Of a stretch of 64,000 bases of DNA, positions 36,690 through 62,494 are shown piece after piece. The DNA is from a plasmid. Location of the stretch: assembly GCF_053078305.1 (NCBI RefSeq), contig NZ_CP166875.1, one strand, 5' to 3'. Position 1 is the stretch's first letter. The number at the start of each line of letters is the position of its first letter. Below the pieces are notes generated by a model. That model was not told the origin of the DNA. It saw only the letters and a list, made by a program, of their open reading frames with translations, and ran no database searches. Both the position numbers and the translations under genes were made by a program.

Positions 36690-39410
36690 TTACATTCCAG
36701 GTGATGGTGGCTCCCATGTTTTCTCCTGCCGTAACGTATAATTATCATCATGGCTCTCCGATAAACGGGTCTGCTGTCTGATATATTCCCGGTAATACTG
36801 CTCACTGCGTTGACGGTGCAAATCCACGTCCGGACGAGTAATGGTGAAGTGTCCGTTTCCGGTTATTCCCGCTGCATTGTGCCAGGCCACCATTTCTGCA
36901 AACACATCATTAAACTGCTGGTATGAACCTTCCGGCTCAAAACCAAGCTTTCCGTTGCGGCTGAACAGAACTGGCGCAATTAAATCAAGCTTCTCTGCCA
37001 GTTCATTTCGGTCCGTGTGATGGTAGAACACAACCCGATCTCCGTAATCCGTACAGACATTTTTTCCTGTCCGCGTATCCCTGAAATGAACACTTCCATT
37101 TTTCTGAAGACGAGCTTCAAGTTTTGCAACATTATTAAAAAGTGGCGTTCCTCCGGGTTCGCAGAGTACGACACAACGATCAGCATTAGTTGTGCGTCTT
37201 TTATCCTTATTACGCGAGCGACGATCACGATAATCCCAGCCACGTAACTGCGATACTGCAGCCCTGTCTCCCTGAGCCGCCTGTTGTTCCACCCACTGCC
37301 GGTAGGACAAAGGATACCACTTACCCTCCGCAATCAGTGACAACCGCTCTTCCTTCACACTCTCCTTCAGCCTGATCAGCGCCTGCATACGCTGCACTTC
37401 CGCAATATGGTAATGCAGCTTACGCAATTGTGGATCCCGGAACTGCACACGGATATACGCCTTGCGCCGACGGCAGGCAGCATGAATTTCCCGTAACCGT
37501 TCTCCGTAACGTAAGTCGGGTTTACGCCAGTGCTCCTTCCATGCAAGATAACGCGCACGCAAATCTTCCCGCGCAGCTGCACGGGCTTCACGGCGCTCAC
37601 GACGAATCTCAGGATCGCGCCGGAAGCCTGGTTCCACTTCATCACTGGCAGCAAGTTCCGGATTGTAACGACATTCAGGCTTCACCCGTTCGAAAATATC
37701 TGCAGCCGCAATTTCAAATGGCCCGGCCTGAGGCTCGGCACGGGATAACGTCAAATCCGGGTGGATACTGCTGGCCTTCACCGGTGTCAGCTCATGATTA
37801 AACGCATCCACAATCACAAGACCATGATGCTGTTTCTGCAGCATAAGCCCTTTACGCGCAAACATCTCATGACATGCCTGCCAGCTGAAATCCCCGCCAG
37901 CTATCATCTCTTCAATCTGGCTCCTGCACTGAATAAGAGCGTATCCCCACAGACTTTCCTTATCGGAAAACAGTTCACGCTTTATAGCCCCCTGCGGACC
38001 TGTGCCCATCCTCATGCGATACCATTCGTAATCACTGACAGGCTGAGAGCCAATACTGTGTCCCCGGAATCGTTCTCCGGGAACGACCTGAGTAAAAATA
38101 TCCTTCGGTACAGGCTGCCATCCACCATCCAGATCCTGCATATAATCCAGCGTCATTAACGGCCACACACTGTCTGCACGTACTGGTGTCTGTTGTTTAT
38201 CAAATCCATCATGCAGTACCAGATGCCCGTGCTGAATCCCCATCCATAATCCCGCCTCTGCCAGAGTACGGTGTACAGCCAGGCAGCTTTTCAGTTCACC
38301 ATTGCGCGCCATTGCCGGTAAGCGTTCGGCAAAATGACGGCAGGCGTACTGTTTCAGACTCTCCGTTTCTGCCACTTTTTCCGGCCGGATATCAACGTTT
38401 ATGGCTTCCGGATCATAACGACCGGGTGTCCCCACCTGACTGAAAATATCTGTCGGTACAGGCTGATATTCCCCCAGTTTCCGCCCCAGTTTTTCAGCCG
38501 TCCATGACGGTCCGAACGAACTGAGTGCAACACCTTCCCGCGCTCTGTCCCAGCCATCCTTCACCACCAGTTCCCCTTCCTGCATCGTGATATACAGACC
38601 ATCGCTGGCCAGCCGTTTATGCAAAGATAACCAGTCCTGTGCAGGCTCTTCACGCAGCCCGGCAATCGACATCTGAGCAATATATTCCCTGAACGTCTGC
38701 TTTTTCCCGCGTCGCCAGGCATTACGGCGCTCACGTACCAGCGCTGTTTTGCGCACAATACGGTTGCCGGGTGCATGCACAAAGCAGCCATTATCCGGCG
38801 CGAATCCGTGCTTAAGTTCAAGTTCACGACATGCACGGCTGAGTTTTTCCTGGCTCCACGGAAGGCAATTGATATAGCCGGTTTCAGGGTGGACACGATT
38901 CACTGCAACATGTACATGCAGGTTATCCGTGTCTGTATGAACGGCTGCCACATACTGATGTTTTGACAGCTCAAGGGATTTCAGGGTGTGACGCACACAG
39001 TCAAAAAGCTGCTCAGAACGCGGACTTTCGTGCGCAGGCCAGGAGAGAATATAGTGAAAAACAGGATCTGTATCATCTTTGGAAAAATGAGCAAGGTCTG
39101 CTGCTTTCTGCATTTCTTCAGCCGCAGATTCAAGAGACAAACAGTTATGAAAGCAGGTCACACCATAGAAATTCACCCACTGACTGCCGTCTTTCATCAC
39201 ATCAATCAGGGAAACAAATTTTTCATTACGCAGACGTGTTGCATAATCAACAAGACGTCTGAAGCGATTCCGGTGCGGAACCTCACCTTTCACTTCCGTG
39301 TCTGGTCTGAGTTCATCTTCCGGCACATCATCCCGCACTGAGGTGTACGCAATCAGGTCTTCAAAAGAAGACTTTCCGTCGCGTCTTTTTTTCGGAATGA
39401 TGGCATTCAT
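36690..39410 (-). CDS. nikB: conjugative relaxase (NikB-like)
   Basis: 906 aa; N-terminal relaxase domain with histidine motif HVHVAVNRVH; adjacent to nikA-like gene and oriT-like site. Confidence 0.8.
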   Translation of the reverse strand: MNAIIPKKRRDGKSSFEDLIAYTSVRDDVPEDELRPDTEVKGEVPHRNRFRRLVDYATRLRNEKFVSLIDVMKDGSQWVNFYGVTCFHNCLSLESAAEEMQKAADLAHFSKDDTDPVFHYILSWPAHESPRSEQLFDCVRHTLKSLELSKHQYVAAVHTDTDNLHVHVAVNRVHPETGYINCLPWSQEKLSRACRELELKHGFAPDNGCFVHAPGNRIVRKTALVRERRNAWRRGKKQTFREYIAQMSIAGLREEPAQDWLSLHKRLASDGLYITMQEGELVVKDGWDRAREGVALSSFGPSWTAEKLGRKLGEYQPVPTDIFSQVGTPGRYDPEAINVDIRPEKVAETESLKQYACRHFAERLPAMARNGELKSCLAVHRTLAEAGLWMGIQHGHLVLHDGFDKQQTPVRADSVWPLMTLDYMQDLDGGWQPVPKDIFTQVVPGERFRGHSIGSQPVSDYEWYRMRMGTGPQGAIKRELFSDKESLWGYALIQCRSQIEEMIAGGDFSWQACHEMFARKGLMLQKQHHGLVIVDAFNHELTPVKASSIHPDLTLSRAEPQAGPFEIAAADIFERVKPECRYNPELAASDEVEPGFRRDPEIRRERREARAAAREDLRARYLAWKEHWRKPDLRYGERLREIHAACRRRKAYIRVQFRDPQLRKLHYHIAEVQRMQALIRLKESVKEERLSLIAEGKWYPLSYRQWVEQQAAQGDRAAVSQLRGWDYRDRRSRNKDKRRTTNADRCVVLCEPGGTPLFNNVAKLEARLQKNGSVHFRDTRTGKNVCTDYGDRVVFYHHTDRNELAEKLDLIAPVLFSRNGKLGFEPEGSYQQFNDVFAEMVAWHNAAGITGNGHFTITRPDVDLHRQRSEQYYREYIRQQTRLSESHDDNYTLRQEKTWEPPSPGM

Positions 39411-39421
39411 CAGCGATTATC

Positions 39422-39754
39422 TCAGCGTCCCATTAAATCTCTTCGCAGAGTATTAGCGAGTTCTGTAATAGCAACGAGAACCTCTGCATACTCTTTATCT
39501 CCCGTGCGTTTTCCTTCCACAAACAGATGCTTCTGCAGGCGACCAAGACGCATCAGCTCTTTCAAAAACTCTTCGTCAATGCGGGCATTTATCTGTTTTC
39601 CCAGCACAGTTTTTCTTATCAGAGTTGAAACTGTCAGTCCGTTTTTTTCTGCCTTTTCTCTAACAATCTCAGCCTCTTCTGGTGAAAAACGAACAGCAAT
39701 GAGGACATTCTTTTGCCGTTTCTCACTGCCACTTCGGGTTTTCTTCTCACTCAT
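39422..39754 (-). CDS. nikA: relaxosome accessory DNA-binding protein (NikA-like)
   Basis: 110 aa, basic; sits directly between relaxase gene and oriT-like inverted repeat. Confidence 0.65.
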   Translation of the reverse strand: MSEKKTRSGSEKRQKNVLIAVRFSPEEAEIVREKAEKNGLTVSTLIRKTVLGKQINARIDEEFLKELMRLGRLQKHLFVEGKRTGDKEYAEVLVAITELANTLRRDLMGR

Positions 39755-41269: not shown

Positions 41270-41660
41270 CATCGTCACGACTGCCGGGTCAGCCAGGTCA
41301 TTTCCCGGAGGAGCGAAGCTCCTTCTGCCGTCCGGGTCTTCGGGGATTTCCCCGCAGTGGACCTTTCCGATGGGGGCCCGTTTACCGCCTCACGGGACAG
41401 CTGTCCGGGGGCGGACGCAAAATTTTTAGCCGGGTTCATGGCTAAAAATTTTGTGGCCGGTGCATCTCACCCTGGACAGATGGAACGGGAGGGGGTTACG
41501 TCTGCCCCCTGGAAAGTCCACAGCGGGAAACAGGCCGCAGGGGTGGCGGCAGGAGGGAAGACTGCTGCGCCATCAGGCGCAGTTTCCTCACACACCGTCA
41601 GGTGTGCAGGGAGCGCAGGTCACGGCGCGACTGAAGAAAAACGACGGCACAACAATGGCA
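41270..41660 (-). promoter_or_regulatory. repeated hairpin element, family A copy 1 (Frpo/ssi-like ssDNA promoter candidate)
   Basis: Shares blocks with 44690-45070 and 60050-60420; contains perfect hairpin AAAATTTTTAGCC / GGCTAAAAATTTT. Confidence 0.4.
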
Positions 41661-44222: not shown

Positions 44223-44657
44223 TCATTCCGGACAGCGACGCAGTGCCAGCGCGAGCGCTTTCATCTTCCAGCCTTCCGGCGTGCGGTACATCACCTTCCA
44301 GTAGCCGTCGATGAACACATAATGGAAGCGCACCTCTTCAGTGCTTTCCGTGGCGATGGCCTCCCTGAAAGAACGGTACTCACGCGCCTCACTGTCCATC
44401 CGGAAACCACTGTCACGTCCGTAATAAGCCGTCACACCGTCCACCGGGTTCTGAAGCGTATGCCCGGCGGGTTTGTCGCAACGGGGACCGAGGCAACGGA
44501 TATCACCGTGTTCAACCAGGGCTTCGGCCTGCTGACCGGTGGCATAGTGGGTATGCAGGATGCGACCGTTCCAGGTCGGCTCACCGTGCAGGTGGCAGTA
44601 AACGGTACGGAACACCCCGTCGCGGCAAAAAACGGAAATCGTGCTGCTGACTGTCAT
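44223..44657 (-). CDS. hypothetical leading-region protein (144 aa)
   Basis: SD AAGGAGA before ATG 44657; directly downstream of hairpin element A2. Confidence 0.45.
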   Translation of the reverse strand: MTVSSTISVFCRDGVFRTVYCHLHGEPTWNGRILHTHYATGQQAEALVEHGDIRCLGPRCDKPAGHTLQNPVDGVTAYYGRDSGFRMDSEAREYRSFREAIATESTEEVRFHYVFIDGYWKVMYRTPEGWKMKALALALRRCPE

Positions 44658-44689
44658 GAAAACGTCTCCTTCTGCTGAATCAGGTCGCC

Positions 44690-45070
44690 GGGCCGACCGA
44701 TTGCTCCCCCGGAGGGGCGAAAGCCCCTTCTGCCGTCCACTTCTTCGGGGTTTCTCCCCGCAGTGGACCTTTCCGATGGGGCAGCGACAGCCACGGCACG
44801 GGGCAGTTGTCCGGGGGCAGACGCAAAAGTTTTTGACGCTTGCGGCAAAAAGTTTTGTGGCTGGTACATCTCCCCCCTGGACGGCTGACACGTGTTGTGG
44901 CCGCTTCAGCCCCCGGAAAGTCCACAGCGGGAAACAGGCCGCAGGGGTGGCGGCGGAAGGGCAGACAACTGCGCCATCAGGCGCAGTTTCCTTACACACC
45001 GTCAGGTGTGCAGGGAGCGCAGGTCACGGCGCGACAGAGGCGGCGCGACCGGAACGGTCGCTGCAAGCCT
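44690..45070 (-). promoter_or_regulatory. repeated hairpin element, family A copy 2
   Basis: Same ordered blocks as copy 1; hairpin CAAAAGTTTTTG / CAAAAAGTTTTG with TTGACG in the stem. Confidence 0.4.
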
Positions 45071-45388: not shown

Positions 45389-45889
45389 TCACCGACGGAA
45401 CACATGACCGTCAATAAAGGTGAAGGAGTCCAGGAATAAATCCCGCGCATACGCCTCATAGTCAAAATAGAGCGCCACCGTCTCCGGCACGTCAGCCAGC
45501 AGGCCGGTATCACTGGCGAACTCAACCGCAAAAGCCTCCTCACTGTCAGCCTCGCCCCACCAGGCATCGCGGAAGCTGTCAAAATCCGTCTCACCGGTAT
45601 CATCCACCCAGAGACGATAAGCCTCTTCGCAGCCTTCATCCCGTGCCCGGCGGAAGCCTTCAACCCAGGCCCAGTTGATATGACATTCAGAGGCCATATT
45701 CCCCGGGAATCCCTCATAATCCTGAAACATCAGTTCAGGATCGGCTTCATCCTGGTGAAGAGCACGGCAGGCGGCGAAAAAGTCGCGCTCATCATCAAAC
45801 GTGGTCAGGTCAAACCAGCGTCCGGCGATGCTTCCACAGTTGTATTTGTGCCAGGTTCCAACGTATACAGCAGGTGCAACAACAGACAT
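45389..45889 (-). CDS. ardA: antirestriction protein ArdA (DNA mimic)
   Basis: 166-aa highly acidic protein starting MSVVAPAVYVGTWHKYNCGSIAGRWFDLTTFDDE, recognised as ArdA; SD GGAGGA. Confidence 0.85.
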   Translation of the reverse strand: MSVVAPAVYVGTWHKYNCGSIAGRWFDLTTFDDERDFFAACRALHQDEADPELMFQDYEGFPGNMASECHINWAWVEGFRRARDEGCEEAYRLWVDDTGETDFDSFRDAWWGEADSEEAFAVEFASDTGLLADVPETVALYFDYEAYARDLFLDSFTFIDGHVFRR

Positions 45890-46302
45890 TCCCGAATCCT
45901 CCATAGTCACATGTTCTGCGACACCGGGCGGTGCCGTGCCTCCATCTTTGCCGGGCCTGCAGGGATGCAAGGGCGCAAGGAAAGCCGCAGCCCGACGCGC
46001 ACGGCTGACGGGAGTTGGAGGGTGAGACCGCGAAATCTGAGCGGGTGAACGACCGGAAAATCACGGCAGACGGGAAGGAGGGACCGGGTGACCGCAGCGG
46101 TTCATCTTACCTTGCAACCCGCCCGCAGAAGCCCGGCTACGATGGAGGCACGGCACAGCCCGCACACGACGCTGAGGCCACATAACTGAAAACCCACAAG
46201 GCCATGCCCCGCATGGCCGGGTAAAGCGGAGCCTGCGGCGACATCCTTTTGCTCTTTCCGGGGACCGGCTGGAAAAGGCGGAGATTTTCCCCGCCAGCGT
46301 CA

Positions 46303-47073
46303 TCATTTCCGGATTTTCGCCAGTGCATCCGCCATGCTGCGGATTTCAGTCCGGGCTTCCAGGACCACCTCCCGCAGAATATCCCGGTCAAACCAGCGAC
46401 GGGACGGTTCATCAGGTATACGCAGCACATCGCAGGCCAGCCCACTGGACAGGATATGCTCCACACACTCACTGACCAGATACATTTCCACCGACGAAAA
46501 ACGAGCGCCCCGGTTCAGGATGGCATCGAGCACCACGGGCAGGTTTTCGTCGTCTTCATCGAGCCAGCAGGGGTGATCGCTTTCCTTCACAACCAGACGA
46601 AAGCGGCGCGTCTGGCGGGTCAGCAACGTCTGACCGGTGGTAGTCAACGCCGCACGGATACGCCGCGCATCTTCTGCCACCCGGCAACTGACACTGCATA
46701 CTGCATCGCGCACCGCATCAAGAACTGCCCTGATTTCGTCTTCGGTCAGCCATTCTCCGGCATACGGGAAAGACACCTGCGTTCCGTCTGCCGGAAGTAC
46801 CGGCAGCGACTGCCACTGACTGCCGGACAGAACAAGTTCCGCCCCGGTTCCGGTCAGTTTCTGAATGGCAGAGGCCAGGAGCGGCGGCAGTACGCCGCCG
46901 TGACGGTTGATAAGTAACGTCGCCAGCCGGGGCGCATCCAGCCGCACGTAAATGCTGATCCAGCCCGGATACTTCGGGTTCCGCTGGTCAACATCCGTTT
47001 CTTCCGGCCAGCCCTGCGCCAGCAACAGGTTGCTGGCGTGGCGATAAATCAGTGCATTCAGCGTTTCATTCAT
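46303..47073 (-). CDS. hypothetical leading-region protein (256 aa)
   Basis: SD GGGAG before ATG; same strand as ardA. Confidence 0.5.
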
Positions 47074-47117
47074 AATTCATGAACTCCCTGTATCGCCGCC
47101 CGAAGGCGGCGATAACA

Positions 47118-47552
47118 TCAGTCGTTTTCGTGTGTGTTGTTTTTCAGCAGGGTGCGGGCCTGATTAACCACCTCCTGACGGCGGGTGACGCATTCCGGGA
47201 CGGCGAGGCCATGATCCCGGGCGGCCCATTCACGTTTCCACAATGCCTGCTCAGCGGTCTGAATCAGGGACGCCAGCAGTTCAGCAGGGACGGTCACCTG
47301 GCGGTTTTCGCTCACGTTATTGATGATCTCCATCACCGCAGCGGAAGAAATACCGGACTCAATCCGCTGTTCTTCCGGGATGTCCTCCAGGCGTGCCAGG
47401 ACGGTCCTGATTTCATGACCGGTCAGAGAAATTTCCATACCGTCAGCCAGTGCCTGAATCTCTTCCGGGGACCAGACAACCAGCATCAGCGGCGTGTTCT
47501 CCGTATACTGCGCTGCCAGCTCACGGCAGAGCGTTTCGCATGTTCCGTACAT
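47118..47552 (-). CDS. hypothetical leading-region protein (144 aa)
   Basis: SD AAGGAGA before ATG 47552. Confidence 0.45.
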   Translation of the reverse strand: MYGTCETLCRELAAQYTENTPLMLVVWSPEEIQALADGMEISLTGHEIRTVLARLEDIPEEQRIESGISSAAVMEIINNVSENRQVTVPAELLASLIQTAEQALWKREWAARDHGLAVPECVTRRQEVVNQARTLLKNNTHEND

Positions 47553-47565
47553 TCTCGTCTCCTTC

Positions 47566-47787
47566 TCAATCTTTAAAGCACGCATCCAGTTCCAGAATTT
47601 CGGTATATGCCTCCATCAGGAGGCGGTTTGCGCGAAACAACGTCTGACGCACCAGACGTTCCGGCAGGGTGTCAGCATTAAAGCTGTACCGCCGCTCCAT
47701 CTCATTCATGGTTGTACGCAGGTCGCACATGGCATTGGCCACATCCGCCACTTCGGCGCGAAGTTTTTCGTGTCCGGCATAGTTCAT
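47566..47787 (-). CDS. hypothetical small protein (73 aa)
   Basis: SD GGAGG before ATG; start overlaps the methyltransferase stop. Confidence 0.4.
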   Translation of the reverse strand: MNYAGHEKLRAEVADVANAMCDLRTTMNEMERRYSFNADTLPERLVRQTLFRANRLLMEAYTEILELDACFKD

Positions 47788-48471
47788 TTACGCAGCCTCC
47801 GGCATAAACCAGTCATCATTCGCGGCCCCCTGCTGCATGGCCCGTTGTACGGCGGCAAGGCGTTGCTGCCCGGCACGGTGATACTGCTCAAGCAGCTCGA
47901 TACCGATATACCGGCGTCCGGACTGGAAGGCGGCCACGCAGGTTGAGCCGCTGCCTGCAAACGGGTCCAGCACAATTGCGTTCGGGTGTGTGAAGCTCTC
48001 AATCAGCGGTTGCAGGCTGGTAACGGGCTTTTCCGTCGGGTGATGACGATTGCCTGAATATTTCCAGCCCAGCACGTCCGGCAGCGGGTTTTGTGGCAGA
48101 CGTGGACGGCCTTTTGCCAGGATGTAGGCACATTCGTGGCGATAGCCCACATATGCGGCCTTCGATGTGTAGTTTTTGGTGAAGACCAGGTGACCAACAA
48201 CGCTGAATCCCGCATTTTTCCAGGCAGACATAAAACGATCGACGCGATTCCAGCCATAGAAGCTCACCATTAACGCGTCTTTTTTGAGTACGCGGTACAT
48301 CTCATTACAGGCCGGTTGCAGCCATTCATCGGTTTTATCGCCGGCAATGGTACGCCCCTGACGGTCACGAAAACCGACGAGGTACGGCGGGTCGGTGAGG
48401 ATGAAATCAATGGCGTTATCAGGGATACGGGCCATAACATCGATGCAGTTACCGAGGACAAAACGGGACAT
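47788..48471 (-). CDS. orphan DNA methyltransferase (N6-adenine/N4-cytosine class, DPPY motif)
   Basis: Motif IV FILTDPPYL; C-terminal AdoMet-binding segment VLDPFAGSGSTCVAA; SD GAAGGAG; no adjacent restriction enzyme gene. Confidence 0.7.
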   Translation of the reverse strand: MSRFVLGNCIDVMARIPDNAIDFILTDPPYLVGFRDRQGRTIAGDKTDEWLQPACNEMYRVLKKDALMVSFYGWNRVDRFMSAWKNAGFSVVGHLVFTKNYTSKAAYVGYRHECAYILAKGRPRLPQNPLPDVLGWKYSGNRHHPTEKPVTSLQPLIESFTHPNAIVLDPFAGSGSTCVAAFQSGRRYIGIELLEQYHRAGQQRLAAVQRAMQQGAANDDWFMPEAA

Positions 48472-48485
48472 ACCAAACTCCTTCT

Positions 48486-48830
48486 CTTACAGAGGGCACC
48501 GGGAGGGCCCCCCTGTGGTGCCCGTTCCCCGCTGCCTGTGGGCTGTTCACCGCGTCCGGTAACGGGTCAGGCCGACCGTGGAATACCGCAGCCGTCGTCT
48601 TTTTGACGGCAAGGTTATGCCGCGAAAGCGGCTTGAAGGGCGTTCATCAGAAAAGGGCGACGGGCTGGCGTACACTGTCACCGGTGCCAGCCGGGAGCGG
48701 TAAAAGCGCCCGTCCCGTGCCCGGCCGGACGCGGGACACTGACCACAGGCAGCGTTTATGCCGCGCCGCGTCAGCCGGCGCAGTAAAAAGAGGAGCACGG
48801 CGACATCCTTTGTCGGAAAAGAAACGGGCG
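48486..48830 (-). promoter_or_regulatory. long imperfect-hairpin element, family B copy 1 (Frpo/ssi-like ssDNA promoter candidate)
   Basis: Near-identical to 49800-50115; distal arms complementary (CGCTGCCTGTGG ... CCACAGGCAGCG); contains TTGACGG. Confidence 0.45.
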
Positions 48831-48855
48831 GTTGCCCGCCCGTCTCCGTCATACT

Positions 48856-49782
48856 TCATCCGCCATAATGCGCCACCTTGTCGACTATCCACGCAGGTCC
48901 GGTGACTTCCGGCAGCTCATCGTCATCTGTCGGGGAAGACCATTCCAGTTCCCCCCACAGCACATCAACGAGCTCTCCGCGCTCATACAACTGCCAGCCA
49001 CAGAAATTGCAGCCCTGTTCGGCGTACCAGTGCTCCAGCGTGCAGCCGAAACGGCGGCTTAATTCTGCAACAACGTCGCTTTCCGGCTGACACCACGGCG
49101 TGTCGAAATCTACCTGAATGAAGTTTTCCCCCTGACTGCTGATATTCAGGTCATACCCACAAGGCCACTTCACGCCATACCGTTCTGTATACCAGTGATA
49201 TGCAGAAGGAACACCGTTCAGAACACCGCCGTTAAAGCCATTCACTTCAATATCCAGGCGGGTCGGCAAAACCGTCAGCAGGTCAAACGGCATGGTTTTT
49301 TCCGGCAGTACGTTGTCACACAGACGGTTCCACCACACCGATACATCCTCGTTACCCCAGATGTCACACCAGTCACCTCTTTTTGCGGTGAAATGCACAG
49401 TGATAGTTTCCCTGACATCATCCGGTAACTCTTCCCAGCGACGCTGTCCAGTACCGCTCTGCAGCCAGAGTTCATGCAGCATCAGGCAGTTTTGCTCATC
49501 CAGCAGTACACCGTTCTGCAGGTGTGTCAGCCAGCGGGTGAACGCGATATTTTCCGGTGATACAGCACCACGTCCGGCAGCCGTCACTCCGGGGCACTGC
49601 TCAGAGCGGATATTTTCAGTGATCTGCAGAAGTCCGGCACTTCCGGCCAGAAACAGCTGAATACCTTCATTTGTGGCGCGGCGATAAAACGGTGTGACTG
49701 CACCGCTGGCCAGTCGTTTAATCTCAGCAATCTGTGCCGGTTCACCAGAAAAATACATACGATTCGAGCACCAGTTTGGCAT
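48856..49782 (-). CDS. hypothetical leading-region protein (308 aa), Trp/Cys-rich
   Basis: SD GAGGAG before ATG 49782; directly downstream of element B2. Confidence 0.5.
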   Translation of the reverse strand: MPNWCSNRMYFSGEPAQIAEIKRLASGAVTPFYRRATNEGIQLFLAGSAGLLQITENIRSEQCPGVTAAGRGAVSPENIAFTRWLTHLQNGVLLDEQNCLMLHELWLQSGTGQRRWEELPDDVRETITVHFTAKRGDWCDIWGNEDVSVWWNRLCDNVLPEKTMPFDLLTVLPTRLDIEVNGFNGGVLNGVPSAYHWYTERYGVKWPCGYDLNISSQGENFIQVDFDTPWCQPESDVVAELSRRFGCTLEHWYAEQGCNFCGWQLYERGELVDVLWGELEWSSPTDDDELPEVTGPAWIVDKVAHYGG

Positions 49783-49799
49783 GGGAATTCTCCTCACAG

Positions 49800-50115
49800 G
49801 AGCACCGGGAGGGAGCCCCTGTGGCGCCCGTTCCCCGCTGCCTGTGGGCTGTTCACCGCGTCCGGTAACGGGTCAGGCCGACCGTGGAATACCGCAGCCG
49901 TCGTCTGTTTGACGGCAAGGTTATGCCGCGAAAGCGGCTTGAAGGGCGTTCATCAGAAAAGGGCGACGGGCTGGCGTACACTATCACCGACGCCAGCCGG
50001 GAGCGGTAAAAGCGCCCGTCCCGTGCCCGCCGGACGCGGGACACTGACCACAGGCAGCGTTTATGCCGCGCCGCGTCAGCCGGCGCAGTAAAAAGAGGAG
50101 CACGGCGACATCCTT
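49800..50115 (-). promoter_or_regulatory. long imperfect-hairpin element, family B copy 2
   Basis: About 97% identical by eye to copy 1 over roughly 310 bp. Confidence 0.45.
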
Positions 50116-50159
50116 TTCCCCTGAACATCCGTCAGCCTTTCTCTGCGGCAAGATCAATC

Positions 50160-50385
50160 CTTAACAGAAAAAAAACCAACAAGCACCCACATAAAAAACA
50201 AAAAACCCAAGCAACACCCACACAAACAAAAAAAACACCCAGAAAACACCCAAAGACAAACAACAATAAAGTAATGAAACCCATAAAACACCCAAAAAAA
50301 GACAAAAAAGATTAAATAGCACTTGAACGCCACCAAAAAAATACTATTATGGGTATAGACACCCAAACGACACCCAAAAGAGGAT
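50160..50385 (+). repeat. parC-like centromere: A/C-rich iterons (ACACCCA and variants)
   Basis: At least 8 direct copies of (A)ACACCCA in a C/A-rich tract directly upstream of the ParM-like gene. Confidence 0.45.
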
Positions 50386-52033: not shown

Positions 52034-53560
52034 TCACTTTTTTCTCCGTCGTCTGCCACGCGCTCTGCTGCCTGTATTTTTTTCCCGGGATGCCGGCTCA
52101 CTCTGCAATGCCGGGGGAGGTACCTGTTTCAGGAGCTGGCGCAGCACACTGTTGAGGATCAGCGTCCGCCGAGCCCGTGTGGCAGCCACATAGAGCAGGT
52201 TGAGTTCATCCCGCAGTTTCTCTTCAAATTCCTGCACATTGTCCGTTCCCGGCTGCTCAAGCTCCTGAAAATCCTCATGCAGCCTCACTGTGTCCCATTC
52301 CAGGCCTTTGGCCCTGTGCACCGTGGTGACAGTCACGGCAGCAGCCTTTTCGTCACGGACCTCATATTTTCGCAGCGTGGCCACATGTTCCGGCAGCGGC
52401 GAAAACTTCTGAATGATAGCCACTGACTGCAGCATTTCCGCGTCCCGGCTTGCCTTTGCCGTCGCCTCATAGTCAGAGAACGACTCCCACGCAGCAAAGC
52501 GAGCCGGCTCCCGGATTTTTTCCGTCATTCCCACAGAAAACCACCACAGATCCAGCAGGCGGGCAACCGGCCAGGCATTCATACCGTTGATCCAGTATGT
52601 TTTCTGCTTCCTCCGGGCCGCGTGAAGCGCAGCACCAATCACGCCCATCACTGTCCGGCACAGCACCGCACAGTGAGGCATATTCCTCTCGGGTTTCAGC
52701 AACAGACGGTCATCACCGCCAAGCCCACAGACTTTTTTCGTCTCCCCGTCCAGAGCCAGCACAGCATTTGCCACATCTGCCACACAGGGACCGAAACGGA
52801 AACTGCCGGTAAGCCACAGCCTGTCTGCCGTGGCCAGAGAGGGGGTATTCAGCGCATCCACGGCACCCCGGAAGCGATAAATCTGCTGATGTGGATCACC
52901 CACCATCACCAGCGTTCCACGGTGGCGCAGGACCAGGTCGGAGATCACCGGACTGGCGTCCTGGGCTTCATCAAACAGGATTTCATCGTACTTTGCGGAC
53001 AGATCCGGCTGCGAAAGCTGGTACAGCTTCAGATACAGATCATGAACGACCGGAAAGTCATCACTGCGGTCGCACATTCTTTGCCAGAGACGCACGGCCA
53101 GCGGCAGCACCTCTGCTGCGCGCAGTGGCGGCCTGGCACGGACATGCACCTCAGACAACGTCGTGTCCGCACTGTTCATGAAAGCCTGTAGGGTTTCCCT
53201 GACGGCCGCAGCCAACGGCCACTGGCGCAGTGAAAGCGCCCCGGCGATATCAGTAATGCCCAGGGAAGGCACGAGACGGTGGGAGTAATGTCGTCCAAAT
53301 TCCGGCCACGCCAGCTGATGTGCAGTCCGGCAACAGACATTCACCGGGAAGCGTGCCTGAGCCTCCTCCCGGACAGACCGGTTGAATGCGATATAGAGCA
53401 TACGGCGTTCAGGCCGGGCCTGCGCATAAGCCACCAGTGTGGCTGTTTTGCCGGTGCCGGCAAAAGCCCTGACAACCAGTCGCTGTCCCTGCCAGTTAAT
53501 GACAGCCTGTTGTTCAGCGGTCGGAGCGTGACGGATTTTCCTGACCGGGTGCTGAGTCAT
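52034..53560 (-). CDS. UvrD/Rep-like superfamily-1 DNA helicase (about 508 aa)
   Basis: Walker A AGTGKTAT, motif II FDEAQD, C-terminal VTTVHRAKGLEWDTV; ATG overlaps the upstream stop (ATGA). Confidence 0.7.
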   Translation of the reverse strand: MTQHPVRKIRHAPTAEQQAVINWQGQRLVVRAFAGTGKTATLVAYAQARPERRMLYIAFNRSVREEAQARFPVNVCCRTAHQLAWPEFGRHYSHRLVPSLGITDIAGALSLRQWPLAAAVRETLQAFMNSADTTLSEVHVRARPPLRAAEVLPLAVRLWQRMCDRSDDFPVVHDLYLKLYQLSQPDLSAKYDEILFDEAQDASPVISDLVLRHRGTLVMVGDPHQQIYRFRGAVDALNTPSLATADRLWLTGSFRFGPCVADVANAVLALDGETKKVCGLGGDDRLLLKPERNMPHCAVLCRTVMGVIGAALHAARRKQKTYWINGMNAWPVARLLDLWWFSVGMTEKIREPARFAAWESFSDYEATAKASRDAEMLQSVAIIQKFSPLPEHVATLRKYEVRDEKAAAVTVTTVHRAKGLEWDTVRLHEDFQELEQPGTDNVQEFEEKLRDELNLLYVAATRARRTLILNSVLRQLLKQVPPPALQSEPASREKNTGSRARGRRRRKK

Positions 53561-54183
53561 TTTGCCGTTGCGTCCTCCCCGTCCGTCATCCCGGCCAGAG
53601 CGACCTGTTTTTTCTCCCACCGTCGGTCCCGGATGGCCAGCCAGCGTTGAGCATTTTTTGCCTCATCCTCAGAAACCAGCCCGGCAGGCTTACCGTCGAG
53701 GTCATAGCGGGTGGCACCGGTGACAGCGGTACGCAACAGATAGACACGGCGGGAGGTGATACAGGATACGGCACAGTCCCATTCATCCCGGGTGAGTCCG
53801 GCTTCAGGGTGCTCAGCCAGCCAGGCAGGAATATCGCGGGAGATACCGACCCTGAGAGGCAGAAAACCGCCGCCTTCAGCGCGAAGATGCGGGAAAATCG
53901 CCTTGACCTTTTCCATGCACTGGTCGGTGAACTCCCGTGTCCAGTGCTCTCTGAGGGGTCTGCGTGGTGGTCTTCCTTTCCTTTTTTTTCCGACGGCAGC
54001 AGGCGCAGGAGACGCATCCTGGATGGGGGCTGGCAGCTGCTCATCAGCAGCAGCCGGTGGTGCCCCCACTTCCGGTACAGGCGAAATGACAGTCTCTGTT
54101 TTATCGACGACAGGTGGTGGTGAAATAACGCGACGTTTTTTCACCACAATGACGGGCGTTTTCTTTTCCTGATTCCTGGCCAT
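53557..54183 (-). CDS. ProQ/FinO-domain RNA-binding protein (FinO-like)
   Basis: Basic/Pro-rich N-terminus; C-terminal domain aligns by eye with FinO (PLRVGISRDI ... GATRYDLDGKP ... EDEAKNAQRWL). Confidence 0.55.
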   Translation of the reverse strand: MARNQEKKTPVIVVKKRRVISPPPVVDKTETVISPVPEVGAPPAAADEQLPAPIQDASPAPAAVGKKRKGRPPRRPLREHWTREFTDQCMEKVKAIFPHLRAEGGGFLPLRVGISRDIPAWLAEHPEAGLTRDEWDCAVSCITSRRVYLLRTAVTGATRYDLDGKPAGLVSEDEAKNAQRWLAIRDRRWEKKQVALAGMTDGEDATAK

Positions 54184-55373: not shown

Positions 55374-58300
55374 ATGCAGAAGTACAAGAAAAGAATTAGT
55401 ATATTAACAAAAAGTGAAATAAATGAATTATATCAAGTCCCCTCTTTTAATCCTGTTGAAAGGGATGAGTTTTTTTCGCTGGATATCAGCCTTAAAAGAG
55501 AAATTGATAAAATAATAAATATAGAAAGCAGGGTGTATCTGATATTAATAACAGGGTATTTCAGATATAAACCTGTGATTCCTGAATTTACATTAAAAGA
55601 CGTAAAAAGGGATGTGAAATATATTATCCAGACATATTATAAAAACGAAAGTACTAATCTCAATTTAAACATACCTAAAAGTACAAAGTACCGCCTTGTT
55701 AAACGAATGCTTTCTACTCTAGGATTTGAACAACTCACCCCATCTATAAAAAATGAGTTAAGTGAACGTCTGAATGATGTTGCTACTATATGTATGGAAC
55801 CAAAATATATTTTTGATGAATTACTTGCTTTTTTAGGACAGCGGCGTATAGCTCTTCCTGGATACAGTACTGTCCAGAACCTCGTTTCAGATGCTTTAAA
55901 CTTTGAAAGGAAAAGGACAATTAATATTTTGTCAAAGAGAATTTATCCTGCCACTGCACAAAAGATTACATCCATCATCCATGATGATGGAATATTAAAT
56001 TCCATCAGGGGATATAATTATAGCACGAGAGACTTCTCAGCATCAGAAATAGAAAATGAATTAAGAACTCACAATGTGATAAGTAGTATTTACTATGAAA
56101 TAAAAGATATAATTAATTCATTAGGTATATCCCAGGGAAACATGGAGTACTATGCAACTATCGTAAAACACAGTACAACATTCAGACTTAAGCGACACCC
56201 TAAATGGCAAGGAATACTTTATTTGTGCTGCTACTTGTACTTCAGATACAGAGAGATAAATGATAAAATAATCACAGCCTTCAGATATTTAGTAAAAAAA
56301 CATAAAGACGCTTCAGTTTTGTTTGCAAAAGCTCGGGCAACAGAGGAAATAGATCTAATAAATAAAAAGCTTAAGTTTGCGAGTAAAATATTTAACTTCT
56401 TCGTTGATAGTAACATTGAAGACAGCATCCCTTTTGGATATGTTCGTGAAAAGGTTTTTTCACTTATATCGAAAGATGATATGCATCTTGTGAGTGAATT
56501 TTTTGACAAAAATAAAATCGATGTAATTGAATATCAATGGCAGTATATTGACAGCCATCACCTTAAGATCGCCAATTCAATCCGAAAGCTTTTTCTGGCT
56601 ATAGATATAGTATATGACAACGAGAAGTCTGTTATTGGCCAGCAAATTACTGCTGCCAAGGATGATCTCAGAGGAAAAGGAAAGCTGGATGCTAAGGATC
56701 TGAGGGTAATTCATCCATCCGAGAAAAATTACATTGTAAAAGAAGGAGAAATTAACACTCAACGATTCGAATTTCATATGTACAGCAGGGTATCTAACCA
56801 TCTGGAAAACGGTGTCTTTTATGCTGCGGAGAGTGAACAAAACAAGAGACTGGAAGATGATCTCATAGAACGAAGTTACTGGCATAAGAATAAATCGATT
56901 TTGATAGAGAAAACAGGCCTTGAACGACTTATCACACCAATAACGCAGACTCTTAATGAGCTGGAGAATACCTTTAGCGATAAACTGGCTCGTATAACCA
57001 TTGGAATAAACTCAGATGCTAATGAGTTTGTGAAAAAACAACCACACTCCAACAGATTACAGTGGAGTCTGGCCAGTAAAAAATGGAAGACCAGCATCGA
57101 TAATCCGATTTACAATCAGATAAAAAATATCGGAATAGTTGACGTAATGAAGTATGTAAACAATGAGACGAATTTTTTGTCTGTGTTTAATGCCATATCA
57201 TCCAGGAAAAATAATCTTGAAGCTGACTATAATGACCTTCTTGCCTGTATATTTGGTAATGGCGCAAATTATGGTGTTCACAGAATGGCATCTGCATCAG
57301 ACCGTAGTATTGGAATACTACGTGATGTGAATGACAAATTCATTCGTCCAGAAACAACAGGAATGGCCAACACAGTAATATCTGATGCAATTGCAAATCT
57401 TTCTGTATATAAATACTGGACGATAAATGAAGATTCTCCATTTGGAAGTGTTGATGGGCAGAAGCACACTTGCAGAATAAATACATTTAAAGCCCGTTAT
57501 TCTGCCAAGTATTTCAGAAAGGGGAAAGGGGTTTCTGCGATGACACTGGTATCTAATCATGTGCCATTATCAACTGTGGTAATTTCTCCAAATGAATATG
57601 AAGGTCATTTTGCATTTGACTTGTTATATAACAACACCAGTGAAATACAACCAAAGTCATTAGCGACTGACAATCATGGTATAAACAACGTTAATTTTGC
57701 GATTCTTGACATTTTTGGCTATCAGTTTTCACCACGTTATGCAAAATTCAAGAAAATATTTAATGAATTATTTGATGTTATACTGGAGAGTGATAAACTC
57801 ATTATAAAACTTAAAAAACAATTTAACTTTAAGCTCATTGAACATGAATGGGAAAACATCCAACATATTATTTGTTCTTTAAGCAGAAAAACAACCATTC
57901 AAAGTACGGTTGTTAAGAAGTTATCTAATACAAAGCGTAGCAACAAGACATTAGCAGCACTTCGGGAGTATGACCGAGTTATAAAATGCATATATGTCCT
58001 GGATTATGCTGACAATAAAACCTTAAGGCAATTTGTGCAACAAGCACTGAACAGAGGTGAAGCTTATCATCAACTAAGAAGAGCAATAGCATCAGTAAAT
58101 GGAAATCAATTTCGCGGTGGTAATGACTACCAAATAGATCAATGGAACGACTGTGCGAGGTTAATAGCTAATTGTGTAATCTATTATAATTCAGCAATAT
58201 TATCCAGGCTGGTCGAGAAATTTGAAAAAGAAAATAATAAAAAAGCGATAGATGTTCTGGCTAACTTATCCCCAGTAGCATGGAGACACATTCTCCTTGG

Positions 58301-58412
58301 AGGGAATTATTCTTTTGAAGATCAAGTTGCGATCACAAATTTGGACAGTCTTTTGGAGGGAGTAGACCCACTAAGTGATATCGGAGATATTGAGTCCGAA
58401 TATGACGGTTAA
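55374..58412 (+). CDS. tnpA: Tn3-family transposase TnpA (1012 aa)
   Basis: Size, N-terminal region and position inside the IR-bounded element. Confidence 0.8.
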   Translation: MQKYKKRISILTKSEINELYQVPSFNPVERDEFFSLDISLKREIDKIINIESRVYLILITGYFRYKPVIPEFTLKDVKRDVKYIIQTYYKNESTNLNLNIPKSTKYRLVKRMLSTLGFEQLTPSIKNELSERLNDVATICMEPKYIFDELLAFLGQRRIALPGYSTVQNLVSDALNFERKRTINILSKRIYPATAQKITSIIHDDGILNSIRGYNYSTRDFSASEIENELRTHNVISSIYYEIKDIINSLGISQGNMEYYATIVKHSTTFRLKRHPKWQGILYLCCYLYFRYREINDKIITAFRYLVKKHKDASVLFAKARATEEIDLINKKLKFASKIFNFFVDSNIEDSIPFGYVREKVFSLISKDDMHLVSEFFDKNKIDVIEYQWQYIDSHHLKIANSIRKLFLAIDIVYDNEKSVIGQQITAAKDDLRGKGKLDAKDLRVIHPSEKNYIVKEGEINTQRFEFHMYSRVSNHLENGVFYAAESEQNKRLEDDLIERSYWHKNKSILIEKTGLERLITPITQTLNELENTFSDKLARITIGINSDANEFVKKQPHSNRLQWSLASKKWKTSIDNPIYNQIKNIGIVDVMKYVNNETNFLSVFNAISSRKNNLEADYNDLLACIFGNGANYGVHRMASASDRSIGILRDVNDKFIRPETTGMANTVISDAIANLSVYKYWTINEDSPFGSVDGQKHTCRINTFKARYSAKYFRKGKGVSAMTLVSNHVPLSTVVISPNEYEGHFAFDLLYNNTSEIQPKSLATDNHGINNVNFAILDIFGYQFSPRYAKFKKIFNELFDVILESDKLIIKLKKQFNFKLIEHEWENIQHIICSLSRKTTIQSTVVKKLSNTKRSNKTLAALREYDRVIKCIYVLDYADNKTLRQFVQQALNRGEAYHQLRRAIASVNGNQFRGGNDYQIDQWNDCARLIANCVIYYNSAILSRLVEKFEKENNKKAIDVLANLSPVAWRHILLGGNYSFEDQVAITNLDSLLEGVDPLSDIGDIESEYDG

Positions 58413-58478
58413 CAACATGATAAATAATGGTTTTTATGCTAAGAGTGAGACTTTTGGAGGAAATGGGCGCAGAACCCC

Positions 58479-58702
58479 TGTATCTGCCGTTCGGTTTTTG
58501 CACGAAGTTTTTCTGAGCTTTTACCGAACTGCATACGTTGCAGTTTCGCAACCAGCGCCTTCAGCCGGTTGATTTCGGAAGCATAAGCCGCCACCCGCTG
58601 TGAGAGCAGGCGGTTGTATTCAGCCATCTGGCGGATGGTGTCCTGTTGCGTCTGCAACAGTGCCCGCAGGCGGGCGTTCTCATGAGCAAGTGAGGTGTCC
58701 AT
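58479..58702 (-). pseudogene. IS66 tnpC 5' fragment
   Basis: Leucine-zipper-like N-terminus (ENARLRALLQ...) ending inside the Tn3-family IR. Confidence 0.5.
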
Positions 58703-58721
58703 ATCCTCACTTTACAACGGG

Positions 58722-59069
58722 TTATATGCGGATTCCAGCGCGTTCCGTTCGTTTCGGGTGCTTCCAGTTGATACCTTCAAGAAGCATGGATAACTGAGCC
58801 GGAGTAAGGTGCACCTTGCCGTCACGGGTGACTGGCCAGACGAAGCGGCCCCGCTCCAGGCGTTTGGTGAAGAGGCACAGTCCGTCACTGTCAGCCCACA
58901 ACACTTTTATCTGGTCACCCCGGCGTCCGCGGAAGATGAACAGGTGTCCGGAGAACGGGTCATCCTTCAGGACGTTCTGAACTTTTGATGCCAGGCCGTT
59001 AAAGCCATTTCGCATATCGGTGATACCTGCAACCAGCCAGATACGCGAACCTGCAGGGAGAGATATCAT
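58722..59069 (-). CDS. IS66-family accessory protein TnpB (orf2)
   Basis: 115 aa with RIWLVAGITDMRNGFNGL motif. Confidence 0.65.
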   Translation of the reverse strand: MISLPAGSRIWLVAGITDMRNGFNGLASKVQNVLKDDPFSGHLFIFRGRRGDQIKVLWADSDGLCLFTKRLERGRFVWPVTRDGKVHLTPAQLSMLLEGINWKHPKRTERAGIRI

Positions 59070-60049: not shown

Positions 60050-60420
60050 GTTCCCTCCGGTATTCACCATCACCTGTTTGAGAACCTTCGCCGCAAGGGG
60101 CATCACTGCCACGGCCGGAAACGACTGTCCGGGGGCAGACCGCAAAAGTTTTTGCCTGCTTTTGGGCAAAAAGTTTTGCGGGATGTGCATTTCACCCCTG
60201 GACTGGCGGAGACGGTTGTGGCTGTCTTTGCCCCCGGCGACAGGGGCTTAAACAGGTGTATGGCACCGGACACAACAACGGGCAGGGACCCGCCGCAACG
60301 ACGAAGAGCGCGTGCGCGAAACGGCGTTGCCCCTTACATCCCGGCGGCCTTTTGCCGGGATGCCAGGAGCGCAGGCCACGGCGCGACAGAGGCGGCGCGA
60401 CCGGAACGGTCGCTGCAAGC
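60050..60420 (-). promoter_or_regulatory. repeated hairpin element, family A copy 3
   Basis: Shares the CAAAAGTTTTTG hairpin and the 60-bp block CGCAGG(T/C)CACGGCGCGACAGAGGCGGCGCGACCGGAACGGTCGCTGCAAGCC with copy 2. Confidence 0.4.
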
Positions 60421-62440: not shown

Positions 62441-62494
62441 CACGGTATCTCCCTTGCTGCCGCCCCGTCTCCGGCGGGGCGGTGTGGTTGTTCA

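What the first reader, a model, noticed from the sequence alone, without database searches (positions are those of the whole stretch)
46303..47787. Three co-directional unknown ORFs between ardA and the orphan methyltransferase
ORFs of 256, 144 and 73 aa, each with a strong ribosome-binding site, sit in an apparent operon with the methyltransferase (the 73-aa start overlaps the methyltransferase stop). Co-expression with a protective methylase suggests a shared early-establishment role.
Basis: inference. Interest (0 to 1): 0.5.

Follow-up and report, generated by a model that had tools for sequence, protein, structure and literature searches.

The report
Uncharacterised yubE-yubF-yubG plasmid entry genes
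The three ORFs are real, conserved genes (yubE, yubF/DUF1380, yubG/ychA) that follow a single-strand-specific DNA methylase in an operon known to switch on as a conjugative plasmid enters a new cell; the arrangement is already described, but what the three proteins do is still unknown.

Summary
Three minus-strand ORFs of 73, 144 and 256 aa lie at 47566-47787, 47118-47552 and 46303-47073. They sit directly behind a 227-aa methylase that is 94% identical to M.EcoGIX, and ahead of a true ArdA gene.

They are not new. The block is 90-92% identical to F and pESBL, occurs in at least 5000 PLSDB plasmids, and is found in 3355 of 5426 complete E. coli genomes. The families are YubE (PF27407), DUF1380/YubF/YcgB and YubG/YchA. 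Samuel et al. 2024 list them as the 11th, 7th and 10th largest leading-region gene families, all marked "uncharacterized".

The operon reading is supported:
- The spacers are 0, 13 and 44 nt.
- No internal promoter is detected.
- A hairpin with a T-run follows yubG.
- The ~320-nt upstream hairpin element is 96-97% identical to the pESBL "class 3" ssDNA promoter, whose start site and zygotic induction were mapped by Wen et al. 2025.

All three genes are under purifying selection but diverge much faster than the methylase. YubG gives a confident AlphaFold model with no match to any known fold. YubE is always translationally coupled to the methylase. YubG-like genes also occur without the methylase, next to ArdA or KlcA.

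My best guess is that they are transient, non-enzymatic establishment or anti-defence proteins. Function remains untested.

The parts
48472..48860 (+). Single-stranded-DNA promoter element ('class 3' type) upstream of the methylase. It folds on the plus strand, which is the transferred strand and the template for these genes.
   Evidence: The ssDNA fold is -106.9 kcal/mol, z = -6.1 against shuffles. It is 97.1% identical to the element upstream of M.EcoGIX in pESBL and 96.1% identical to the one in F. Long invariant blocks persist even in loci whose proteins are only 40-60% identical. The consensus structure has 93 pairs, 19 of them with compensatory changes. The start site was mapped in pESBL by 5' RACE (PMC12672017). 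A spurious 101-aa ORF (48547-48852) lies over it.
47788..48471 (-). First gene of the operon: an M.EcoGIX-family single-strand-specific m6A DNA methyltransferase (F yubD/yfeA, R64 yfbB).
   Evidence: NCBIfam PRK13699, 500.6 bits. 214/227 residues identical to M.EcoGIX and 213/227 to the F homologue. AAGGAG lies 6 nt before the ATG.
47566..47787 (-). yubE (pESBL Hp9, R64 yfcA): a 73-aa acidic protein, translationally coupled to the methylase.
   Evidence: PHROG 4830, E 5e-34. Homologues at 96-97% identity carry Pfam PF27407 'YubE'. The length is 73 aa in 15 of the 16 aligned sequences (72 in P0507), with 15 invariant residues. The stop/start junction is TAAATG, TAATG or TGATG in all 9 loci examined. 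dN/dS is 0.14-0.30.
47118..47552 (-). yubF / ycgB (pESBL Hp10): a 144-aa DUF1380 protein that is acidic and predicted to be all-helical.
   Evidence: Pfam DUF1380, E 4.5e-52. pI 4.7, net charge -11. The AlphaFold model has low confidence (pLDDT 60.8, seven helices). A paralogue (24-26% identity) sits in the klcA operon of F, pESBL and pDW54_2.
47092..47113 (-). Intercistronic GC-rich hairpin (ATCGCCGCC-TTCG-GGCGGCGAT) between yubF and yubG, with no T-run.
   Evidence: A hairpin with the core GCCGCC/GGCGGC and varying outer pairs is present at the same place in F, pESBL, L010, L013, L015 and L016. Its role (mRNA stability, attenuation or an ssDNA structure) is not known.
46303..47073 (-). yubG / ychA (pESBL Hp11, R64 yfdA): the 256-aa last gene of the operon.
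46273..46295 (-). Terminator-like hairpin plus T-run, starting 8 nt after the yubG stop codon (TGA followed in frame by a second TGA); the likely 3' end of the operon.
   Evidence: The window has GGCGGGGA-AAA-TCTCCGCC followed by TTTT. F has the same hairpin followed by seven T residues, and pESBL by five. A second terminator-like site at 46213-46195 was flagged by the scan.
45890..46302 (+). 'Class 2'-type ssDNA promoter element that drives ardA. It marks the downstream boundary of the operon.
   Evidence: The ssDNA fold has z = -4.2. It is 87-88% identical to the klcA- and ardA-upstream elements of pESBL and F, and 98% identical to both copies in pDW54_2. Class 2 promoters are described in PMC12672017.
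45389..45889 (-). ardA (166 aa), a separately transcribed neighbour gene.
   Evidence: Pfam ArdA, E 2.2e-29. pI 4.1, net charge -24.

Best explanation
The three ORFs are yubE, yubF (DUF1380) and yubG (ychA), the distal genes of a four-gene leading-region operon headed by an M.EcoGIX-type ssDNA methyltransferase.

How expression most likely works. The plus strand of the window is the transferred strand. Its 5' end lies near 39.8-40.0 kb, so the operon enters the recipient within seconds. Once the ~320-nt element at 48472-48860 has entered, it folds into a hairpin that RNA polymerase uses as a promoter. The four genes are transcribed toward oriT in a short burst. The burst ends when the complementary strand is made and the hairpin is lost. 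Translation is coupled: the methylase stop abuts the yubE start, and the other spacers are 13 and 44 nt. Transcription probably ends at the hairpin and T-run just after yubG.

What is shown. Identity, operon anatomy and promoter homology are shown here. Zygotic induction is shown experimentally for the near-identical pESBL operon, and for F by RNA-seq.

What is inferred. The three products are small, acidic, cytoplasmic proteins with no enzyme signature. I think they act transiently in the new host by binding other proteins, as establishment or anti-defence factors. YubE is most likely a stoichiometric partner or modulator of the methylase. YubG is most likely an autonomous module, because its relatives sit with ArdA or KlcA behind their own hairpin promoters even where no methylase is present.
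For: Anatomy.

Homology. The block 45897-48900 is collinear with F (90.0%) and pESBL (92.3%). The promoter element is 96-97% identical to theirs and has a conserved structure.

Transfer orientation. A MobP relaxase lies at 36690-39410 and a 110-aa ORF at the nikA position at 39422-39754. Both are on the same strand as the operon, with the leading genes above 40 kb.

Literature:
- Six ssDNA-promoter operons, including the M.EcoGIX operon, are induced up to ~500-fold at 15 min in pESBL transconjugants, with start sites confirmed by 5' RACE. The klcA and M.EcoGIX-homologue operons are also induced in F (PMC12672017).
- M.EcoGIX acts on the entering single strand and protects against restriction (PMC7736820 and PMC4288162).
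- The three families rank 7th, 10th and 11th among leading-region-enriched families, at positions 19, 18 and 20 from oriT, on the expressible strand (PMC11541004, supplement).

Protein-level evidence:
- Purifying selection, with dN/dS 0.1-0.5, but much faster divergence than the methylase. YubE, YubF and YubG are 32-63% identical in loci where the methylase is 80-88% identical. This pattern is typical of proteins that engage host targets.
- No enzyme, defence or solved-structure match.

Linkage:
- The order methylase-YubE-DUF1380-YubG is kept down to 40% YubG identity.
- The methylase/YubE junction is always a 0-nt spacer or a 1-nt overlap.
- Stand-alone YubG-like genes sit beside ArdA or KlcA, behind strongly folding T-strand hairpins.
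Against: There is no functional evidence for any of the three proteins.
- pESBL TnSeq scored Hp9, Hp10 and Hp11 as fully non-essential for maintenance and for transfer into E. coli K-12.
- Nothing here shows that any of them binds a defence protein or the methylase.
- M.EcoGIX works when cloned alone, so YubE is not needed for catalysis.
- yubE alleles reassort relative to the methylase. The window's yubE is 97% identical to pESBL's but 75% to F's, while the methylase is 94% identical to both.
- The DUF1380 model is low-confidence.
- I could not see gene-level RNA-seq values for Hp9-11. The supplement is not held, and the text speaks of operons.
Confidence: 0.55

Rival explanations
1. All three proteins are accessory or regulatory subunits of the methyltransferase. 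They would target it to the incoming single strand or to DNA polymerase I, or restrain it to limit toxic over-methylation.
For: The four genes are co-transcribed and tightly linked in most plasmids, and yubE is translationally coupled to the methylase. Fomenkov et al. found that M.EcoGIX activity is lost on purification, associates with Pol I, modifies only about 40% of sites, and that over-methylation can be lethal. That leaves room for missing partners.
Against: YubG-like genes occur with no methylase, YubE or DUF1380 nearby (L005, L007). A DUF1380 paralogue travels with KlcA instead of a methylase. DUF1380 is absent in L012 and truncated in L016, although the methylase and YubE are intact there. 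The methylase cloned alone methylates in vivo.
Confidence: 0.15
2. They help process the incoming DNA or reprogramme the host, rather than counter defence. Possible roles include complementary-strand synthesis, circularisation, SOS or replication control, or metabolic adjustment, by analogy with PsiB, plasmid SSB and HerB/YfjB.
For: They share the expression window and neighbourhood of ssb, psiB and the ParB-like HerB, which have such roles. The leading region controls its own ss-to-ds conversion through UvrD.
Against: No DNA-binding, nuclease, helicase or nucleotide-binding motif or fold was detected. The proteins are acidic. They were dispensable for transfer and maintenance in standard matings.
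Confidence: 0.2
3. They are a toxin-antitoxin or addiction module, or some other selfish cassette, unrelated to plasmid entry.
For: The genes are small, tightly packed and co-transcribed, and toxin-antitoxin genes are enriched in leading regions.
Against: Transposon insertions were tolerated in each of Hp9, Hp10 and Hp11, with 'essential for maintenance' scored 0.00. An antitoxin would not tolerate them. There is no match to any toxin or antitoxin family. Gene content varies, with yubG alone in some loci and no yubF in others.
Confidence: 0.03
4. They are conserved by linkage only, as functionless passengers of a successful backbone.
For: No phenotype is known, and the taxonomic range is narrow (Enterobacterales plasmids).
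Against: dN/dS is well below 1 in every unsaturated comparison (0.1-0.5), and reading frames and lengths are preserved at 40% identity. Residues are invariant across 23-98% identity. The block is retained in about 60% of complete E. coli genomes.
Confidence: 0.07

Closest known systems
M.EcoGIX-Hp9-Hp10-Hp11 operon of IncI1 plasmid pESBL, equivalent to yubD(yfeA)-yubE-yubF-yubG of plasmid F
   Same: Same four genes in the same order, with the same abutting stop/start junction. The DNA is 92% (pESBL) and 90% (F) identical. The upstream hairpin element is 96-97% identical. Both sit in the leading region on the expressible strand.
   Different: Here the operon is followed directly by ardA rather than klcA. 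The 256-aa protein is 2 residues shorter at the N-terminus. This plasmid lineage carries a second copy of the promoter element upstream of the DUF1281 gene.
klcA-DUF1380(yubJ)-yubK operon of F and IncI1 plasmids ('class 2' ssDNA promoter)
   Same: It is another zygotically induced leading-region operon that pairs a known anti-restriction function with a DUF1380 protein and a small protein.
   Different: The DUF1380 paralogue is only 24-26% identical. The 63-aa YubK shows no similarity to YubE. This operon is absent from the corresponding position in the window.
Leading-region anti-restriction proteins ArdA, KlcA/ArdB, and the phage DNA mimic Ocr
   Same: Small, acidic, cytoplasmic, non-enzymatic proteins expressed early from the incoming strand. 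YubG-like genes are their immediate neighbours in every context examined.
   Different: There is no sequence or profile similarity. Net charges of -3, -11 and -6 are far from ArdA's -24. The YubG model matches no anti-restriction or anti-CRISPR structure above noise.
CesT-like type III secretion chaperones and AcrIF24 (structural resemblance only)

Membership tests
M.EcoGIX-headed zygotic leading-region operon (pESBL / F type) | The first gene is an M.EcoGIX-family ssDNA methyltransferase. | tested here: met
   214/227 residues identical to M.EcoGIX. NCBIfam PRK13699 scores 500.6 bits against a cutoff of 244.
M.EcoGIX-headed zygotic leading-region operon (pESBL / F type) | A 'class 3' ssDNA hairpin promoter lies immediately upstream. 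| tested here: met
   97.1% identical to the pESBL element. The fold has z = -6.1. The structure is conserved and covarying across 7 sequences.
M.EcoGIX-headed zygotic leading-region operon (pESBL / F type) | The genes lie in the leading region, with the transferred strand as their template. | tested here: met
   The relaxase and the nikA-position ORF are on the same strand at 36.7-39.75 kb. The operon lies 6.4-8.6 kb beyond the oriT region and is transcribed toward it. The layout is the same as in pESBL and pHN08160-1.
M.EcoGIX-headed zygotic leading-region operon (pESBL / F type) | Transient induction in transconjugants from single-stranded DNA. | not testable with these tools
   Shown for pESBL and F by RNA-seq, and for pESBL by 5' RACE (PMC12672017). 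It is inferred here from 92-97% identity.
Pfam DUF1380 (PF07128) | A significant full-length match to the family model. | tested here: met
   E 4.5e-52, model positions 1-137 of 137.
Pfam YubE (PF27407) | A match to the family model. | tested here: inconclusive
   The local Pfam library lacks this model and returned nothing. Homologues at 96-97% identity, and all 120 listed relatives, carry a precomputed PF27407 hit. That family is named YubE.
YubG / YchA family (no Pfam model) | Full-length similarity to YchA/YubG proteins. | tested here: met
   PHROG 8919, E 2e-135, over residues 2-256. 93% identical to the F and pESBL proteins. Foldseek TM 0.98 to UniProt YchA.
Known anti-restriction / anti-defence families (ArdA, KlcA/ArdB, anti-CRISPRs) | Sequence or fold similarity to a characterised member. 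| tested here: not met
Type II toxin-antitoxin module | The antitoxin cannot be disrupted while the toxin is present, and there is a match to a toxin or antitoxin family. | tested here: not met
   No family match. pESBL TnSeq scored 'essential for maintenance' as 0.00 for Hp9, Hp10 and Hp11 (PMC4288162).

The most novel reading that the evidence does not exclude
YubG, which has a confidently predicted fold with no known counterpart, and possibly YubF, could be founding members of new anti-defence protein families that disable recipient immune systems other than classical restriction. YubE could be a dedicated partner that times or targets promiscuous ssDNA methylation. If so, part of the restriction-evasion phenotype attributed to M.EcoGIX may belong to them. 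That phenotype was measured with a gentamicin-cassette replacement of the first gene of the operon, and no complementation is described in the passages I read. These proteins are present in roughly 60% of complete E. coli genomes.
Probability: 0.25. Interest if true: 0.7.

Novelty: already known. Interest (0 to 1): 0.33.

Why it matters
These three genes are among the most common uncharacterised genes on Enterobacterales resistance plasmids. They occur in at least 5000 PLSDB plasmids and in 3355 of 5426 complete E. coli genomes. They are expressed in the first minutes after a plasmid enters a new cell, which is when establishment succeeds or fails.

[quoted passage not shown] Knowing what these three do would show how IncF, IncI and IncK plasmids cross host barriers, and could reveal targets for blocking spread.

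This window adds no new biology, because it is a near-identical copy of a described operon. The analysis does give four concrete leads:
- YubE is the only obligate companion of the methylase.
- YubG is autonomous and has a fold without a match.
- All three evolve much faster than the methylase.
- The published methylase knockout may be polar on them.

Tried and rejected
Searches that found no functional match:
- NCBIfam, PADLOC and Pfam gave nothing for YubE and YubG.
- PDB sequence searches with single sequences and with profiles gave only noise.
- Foldseek against AFDB50 returned only the family itself.
- Foldseek against viral structures returned nothing at E <= 0.001.

Dead ends:
- The DUF1380 structure prediction was low-confidence (pLDDT 60.8), so I did not search with it.
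- YubE shows no similarity to YubK or to the small ORF behind the second IncF methylase, which is a low-complexity artefact.
- The internal-duplication test on YubG gave only a weak signal (hhalign E 0.003, probability 10%).
- I could not place the -35 and -10 hexamers of the class 3 element by eye, so I left them unassigned.
- Rfam gave one sub-threshold hit, Erse sRNA, at 25.5 bits against a gathering score of 138.
- Literature searches for DUF1380, yubE/F/G, ychA/ycgB and yfcA/yfcB/yfdA found no functional study.

Rejected readings:
- A toxin-antitoxin module, rejected on the TnSeq data.
- The plus-strand antisense ORFs as genes.
- The 155-aa start for DUF1380.
- The 'hypothetical proteins' annotated over the hairpin elements (for example 48547-48852), which I treat as spurious.

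Full report
**What is there.**
On the minus strand the window carries a compact run of genes:
- a 227-aa methyltransferase at 47788-48471;
- a 73-aa ORF at 47566-47787;
- a 144-aa ORF at 47118-47552;
- a 256-aa ORF at 46303-47073;
- after a 413-nt gap, a 166-aa gene at 45389-45889 that is a true ArdA (Pfam E 2.2e-29).

The methylase stop and the 73-aa start abut (TAA|ATG), with GGAGG 8 nt upstream. The next spacer is 13 nt and contains GAAGGAG. The third spacer is 44 nt. It contains a perfect 9-bp GC hairpin (47092-47113) and a weaker GGGAG, 10 nt before the ATG. The first junction abuts rather than overlaps, and the third ribosome-binding site is only moderate.

**The ORFs are real genes.**
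Each has a full-length family match:
- PHROGs 4830, 9024 and 8919 (E 5e-34, 3e-70 and 2e-135).
- The middle ORF is Pfam DUF1380 (E 4.5e-52).
- Relatives of the 73-aa ORF carry PF27407, 'YubE'.

Codon-level comparison with eight other loci gives dN/dS of 0.1-0.5 wherever dS is not saturated. The DUF1380 start at 47552 is preferred over the longer RefSeq start at 47585.

**They are not new.**
- The 1.7-kb region matches at least 5000 PLSDB plasmids at 90% identity or more. These include IncF, IncI and IncK plasmids of Escherichia, Klebsiella, Salmonella and Shigella. The best match is 100% identical, to the IncK2/Z plasmid pDW54_2.
- 3355 of 5426 complete E. coli genomes carry the block, almost always on plasmids.
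- The stretch 45897-48900 is collinear with plasmid F (90.0%) and pESBL (92.3%).
- The genes correspond to yubE, yubF and yubG of F (ycgB and ychA in R100-style naming) and to Hp9, Hp10 and Hp11 of pESBL.
- Samuel et al. 2024 list DUF1380/YcgB, YchA/YubG and the 73-aa family as the 7th, 10th and 11th largest leading-region-enriched families. They sit at positions 19, 18 and 20 from oriT, just after the methylase at position 21. All are on the strand that can be expressed from the transferred DNA, and all are marked 'Uncharacterized' (PMC11541004, supplement).

**Operon and expression.**
- No sigma-70-like site lies on the coding strand between the methylase and ardA.
- A hairpin followed by a T-run starts 8 nt after the yubG stop (46273-46295). 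The same hairpin in F is followed by seven T residues.
- Upstream of the methylase, 48472-48860 folds as single-stranded DNA far better than shuffled sequence (z = -6.1).
- This element is 96-97% identical to those of pESBL and F, which is more conserved than the coding DNA.
- It keeps long invariant blocks in plasmids whose YubE, YubF and YubG proteins are only 32-63% identical to the window's.
- Its consensus structure has 93 pairs, 19 of them with compensatory changes.

Wen et al. 2025 showed by donor elimination, RNA-seq and 5' RACE that pESBL has six ssDNA-promoter operons induced up to ~500-fold at 15 min. The one in front of M.EcoGIX defines their 'class 3'. The klcA and ardA promoters are 'class 2'. 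The M.EcoGIX-homologue operon of F is also induced (PMC12672017).

The geometry in the window fits this picture. The MobP relaxase and the nikA-position ORF lie on the same strand at 36.7-39.75 kb, so the plus strand is the transferred strand and the template for these genes. The 413-nt gap before ardA is a class 2-type element (z = -4.2; 87-98% identical to known copies). So ardA is a separate transcription unit.

**The methylase is not an ordinary orphan enzyme.**
It is 94% identical to M.EcoGIX. M.EcoGIX makes promiscuous m6A in SAY contexts on single strands, is expressed in the recipient from the entering strand, and protects pESBL from EcoGIII and EcoRI restriction (PMC7736820 and PMC4288162).

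There is a caveat. The knockout behind that phenotype replaces the first gene of the operon with a gentamicin cassette, and no complementation is described in the passages I read. Polar effects on Hp9-11 are therefore not excluded. The methylase ORF cloned alone does methylate in vivo.

**What the three proteins might do.**
No tool gave a functional match.
- *DUF1380 (YubF).* It is acidic (pI 4.7, charge -11) and predicted helical, but the model is poor.
- *YubE.* It is 73 aa in 15 of the 16 aligned sequences (72 in one), with 15 invariant residues.

All three evolve much faster than the methylase. They are 32-63% identical in loci where the methylase is 80-88% identical.

**Linkage.**
- The order methylase-YubE-DUF1380-YubG is kept in plasmids whose YubG is only 40-63% identical (L009, L010, L013, L015, L016).
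- The methylase/YubE junction is always a 0-nt spacer or a 1-nt overlap.
- DUF1380 is missing in L012 and truncated in L016.
- DUF1380 has a paralogue in the klcA operon.
- YubG-like genes at 26-31% identity stand alone beside ArdA or KlcA, with no methylase. Each sits behind its own strongly folding T-strand hairpin (z = -3.35 and -6.40).

So YubE is the only obligate companion of the methylase, and YubG behaves as an autonomous leading-region gene.

**Constraints from genetics.**
pESBL TnSeq scored M.EcoGIX, Hp9, Hp10 and Hp11 as non-essential for maintenance and for transfer to a K-12 recipient. As the authors note, that recipient has no Type II restriction enzyme that M.EcoGIX methylation could counter. 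This excludes a toxin-antitoxin module. It is what one would expect of host-range or anti-defence factors, but it does not demonstrate such a role.

**Verdict.**
The finding is real and correctly read as a methylase-led operon of early-entry genes. It is also a near-identical copy of an arrangement already catalogued and transcriptionally characterised in F and pESBL.

My best mechanistic guess is that the three products are transient, non-enzymatic, protein-binding establishment or anti-defence factors. YubE would be a methylase partner and YubG an independent module. My overall confidence is about 0.55. It is high for identity and expression, and modest for function.

[quoted passage not shown] I found no functional study of these three families.

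Noticed in passing
window 49798-50160 (compare 48472-48860): A second copy of the class 3 ssDNA-promoter element (96-97% identical) sits directly upstream of the DUF1281 gene (48856-49797). It is shared with pDW54_2. In the stretches examined, pESBL, F and the IncK2/Z plasmid pHN08160-1 have only the copy upstream of the methylase. It predicts that DUF1281 has become a zygotically induced gene in this lineage.
   Followed up: partly
window 45890-46302, 61290-63970 and 55374-59746: yubG is joined directly to ardA through a class 2 promoter element. The klcA-DUF1380-ssb-parB-psiB-psiA segment found here in pDW54_2, pESBL and F is missing. This is consistent with recombination between the two class 2 copies. 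psiA, psiB and a long ORF at the ParB-like position (no NCBIfam hit) lie instead at 61.3-64 kb, next to a Tn3-family transposase and an IS66 TnpA. pHN08160-1 has the same yubG-ardA junction.
   Followed up: partly
window 41304-41634, 44708-45038, and weakly 60097-60430: A second repeat family of about 330 nt, whose two main copies are 83% identical to each other. It is homologous to three elements in the pESBL leading region, one of them upstream of ssb. These are probably the Frpo/ssi-type 'class 1' ssDNA promoters.
   Followed up: partly
window 48547-48852, 49853-50128, 44223-44999: Long ORFs (101, 91 and 258 aa) lie entirely over the GC-rich hairpin elements. Their counterparts are annotated as 'hypothetical protein' in RefSeq records. 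Some extended YchA entries (337 aa) are named 'DUF1472', perhaps for the same reason, which I did not check. The ORFs look like annotation artefacts of the promoter elements.
   Followed up: no
window 47092-47113, and the same place in L003, L004, L010, L013, L015, L016: A GC-rich hairpin without a T-run lies between the DUF1380 stop and the yubG start. The core GCCGCC/GGCGGC is conserved and the outer pairs vary between plasmids. Similar hairpins follow yubE in L015 and L016. Its function is unknown; it could be an mRNA stabiliser, an attenuator or an ssDNA structure.
   Followed up: partly
window 48509-48705 (+): A sub-threshold Rfam match to the Erse small RNA (RF02757; 25.5 bits against a gathering score of 138, E 6e-4). 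It spans the whole model, on the transferred-strand orientation of the class 3 element. The two may share a structure, or the match may be chance.
   Followed up: no
window 52034-53620 and 53557-54183 (-): A plasmid-encoded UvrD/Rep-family helicase-like protein and a ProQ/FinO-like protein lie just beyond the leading region. This is notable because host UvrD is reported to resolve the ssDNA-promoter roadblock during strand conversion.
   Followed up: no
one search hits P0094-P0110 (417 aa; P0095 seen on 82 contigs): Recurrent ORFs fuse about 94% of YchA/YubG to an SSB domain (PF00436). They are probably in-frame deletions that join yubG to ssb in some plasmids.
   Followed up: no
L005 3608-4078: The 156-aa protein upstream of a stand-alone YubG-like gene shows weak similarity to the N-terminal part of DUF1380 (hhalign probability 48%, E 1.8e-4 in a one-to-one comparison).
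   Followed up: partly
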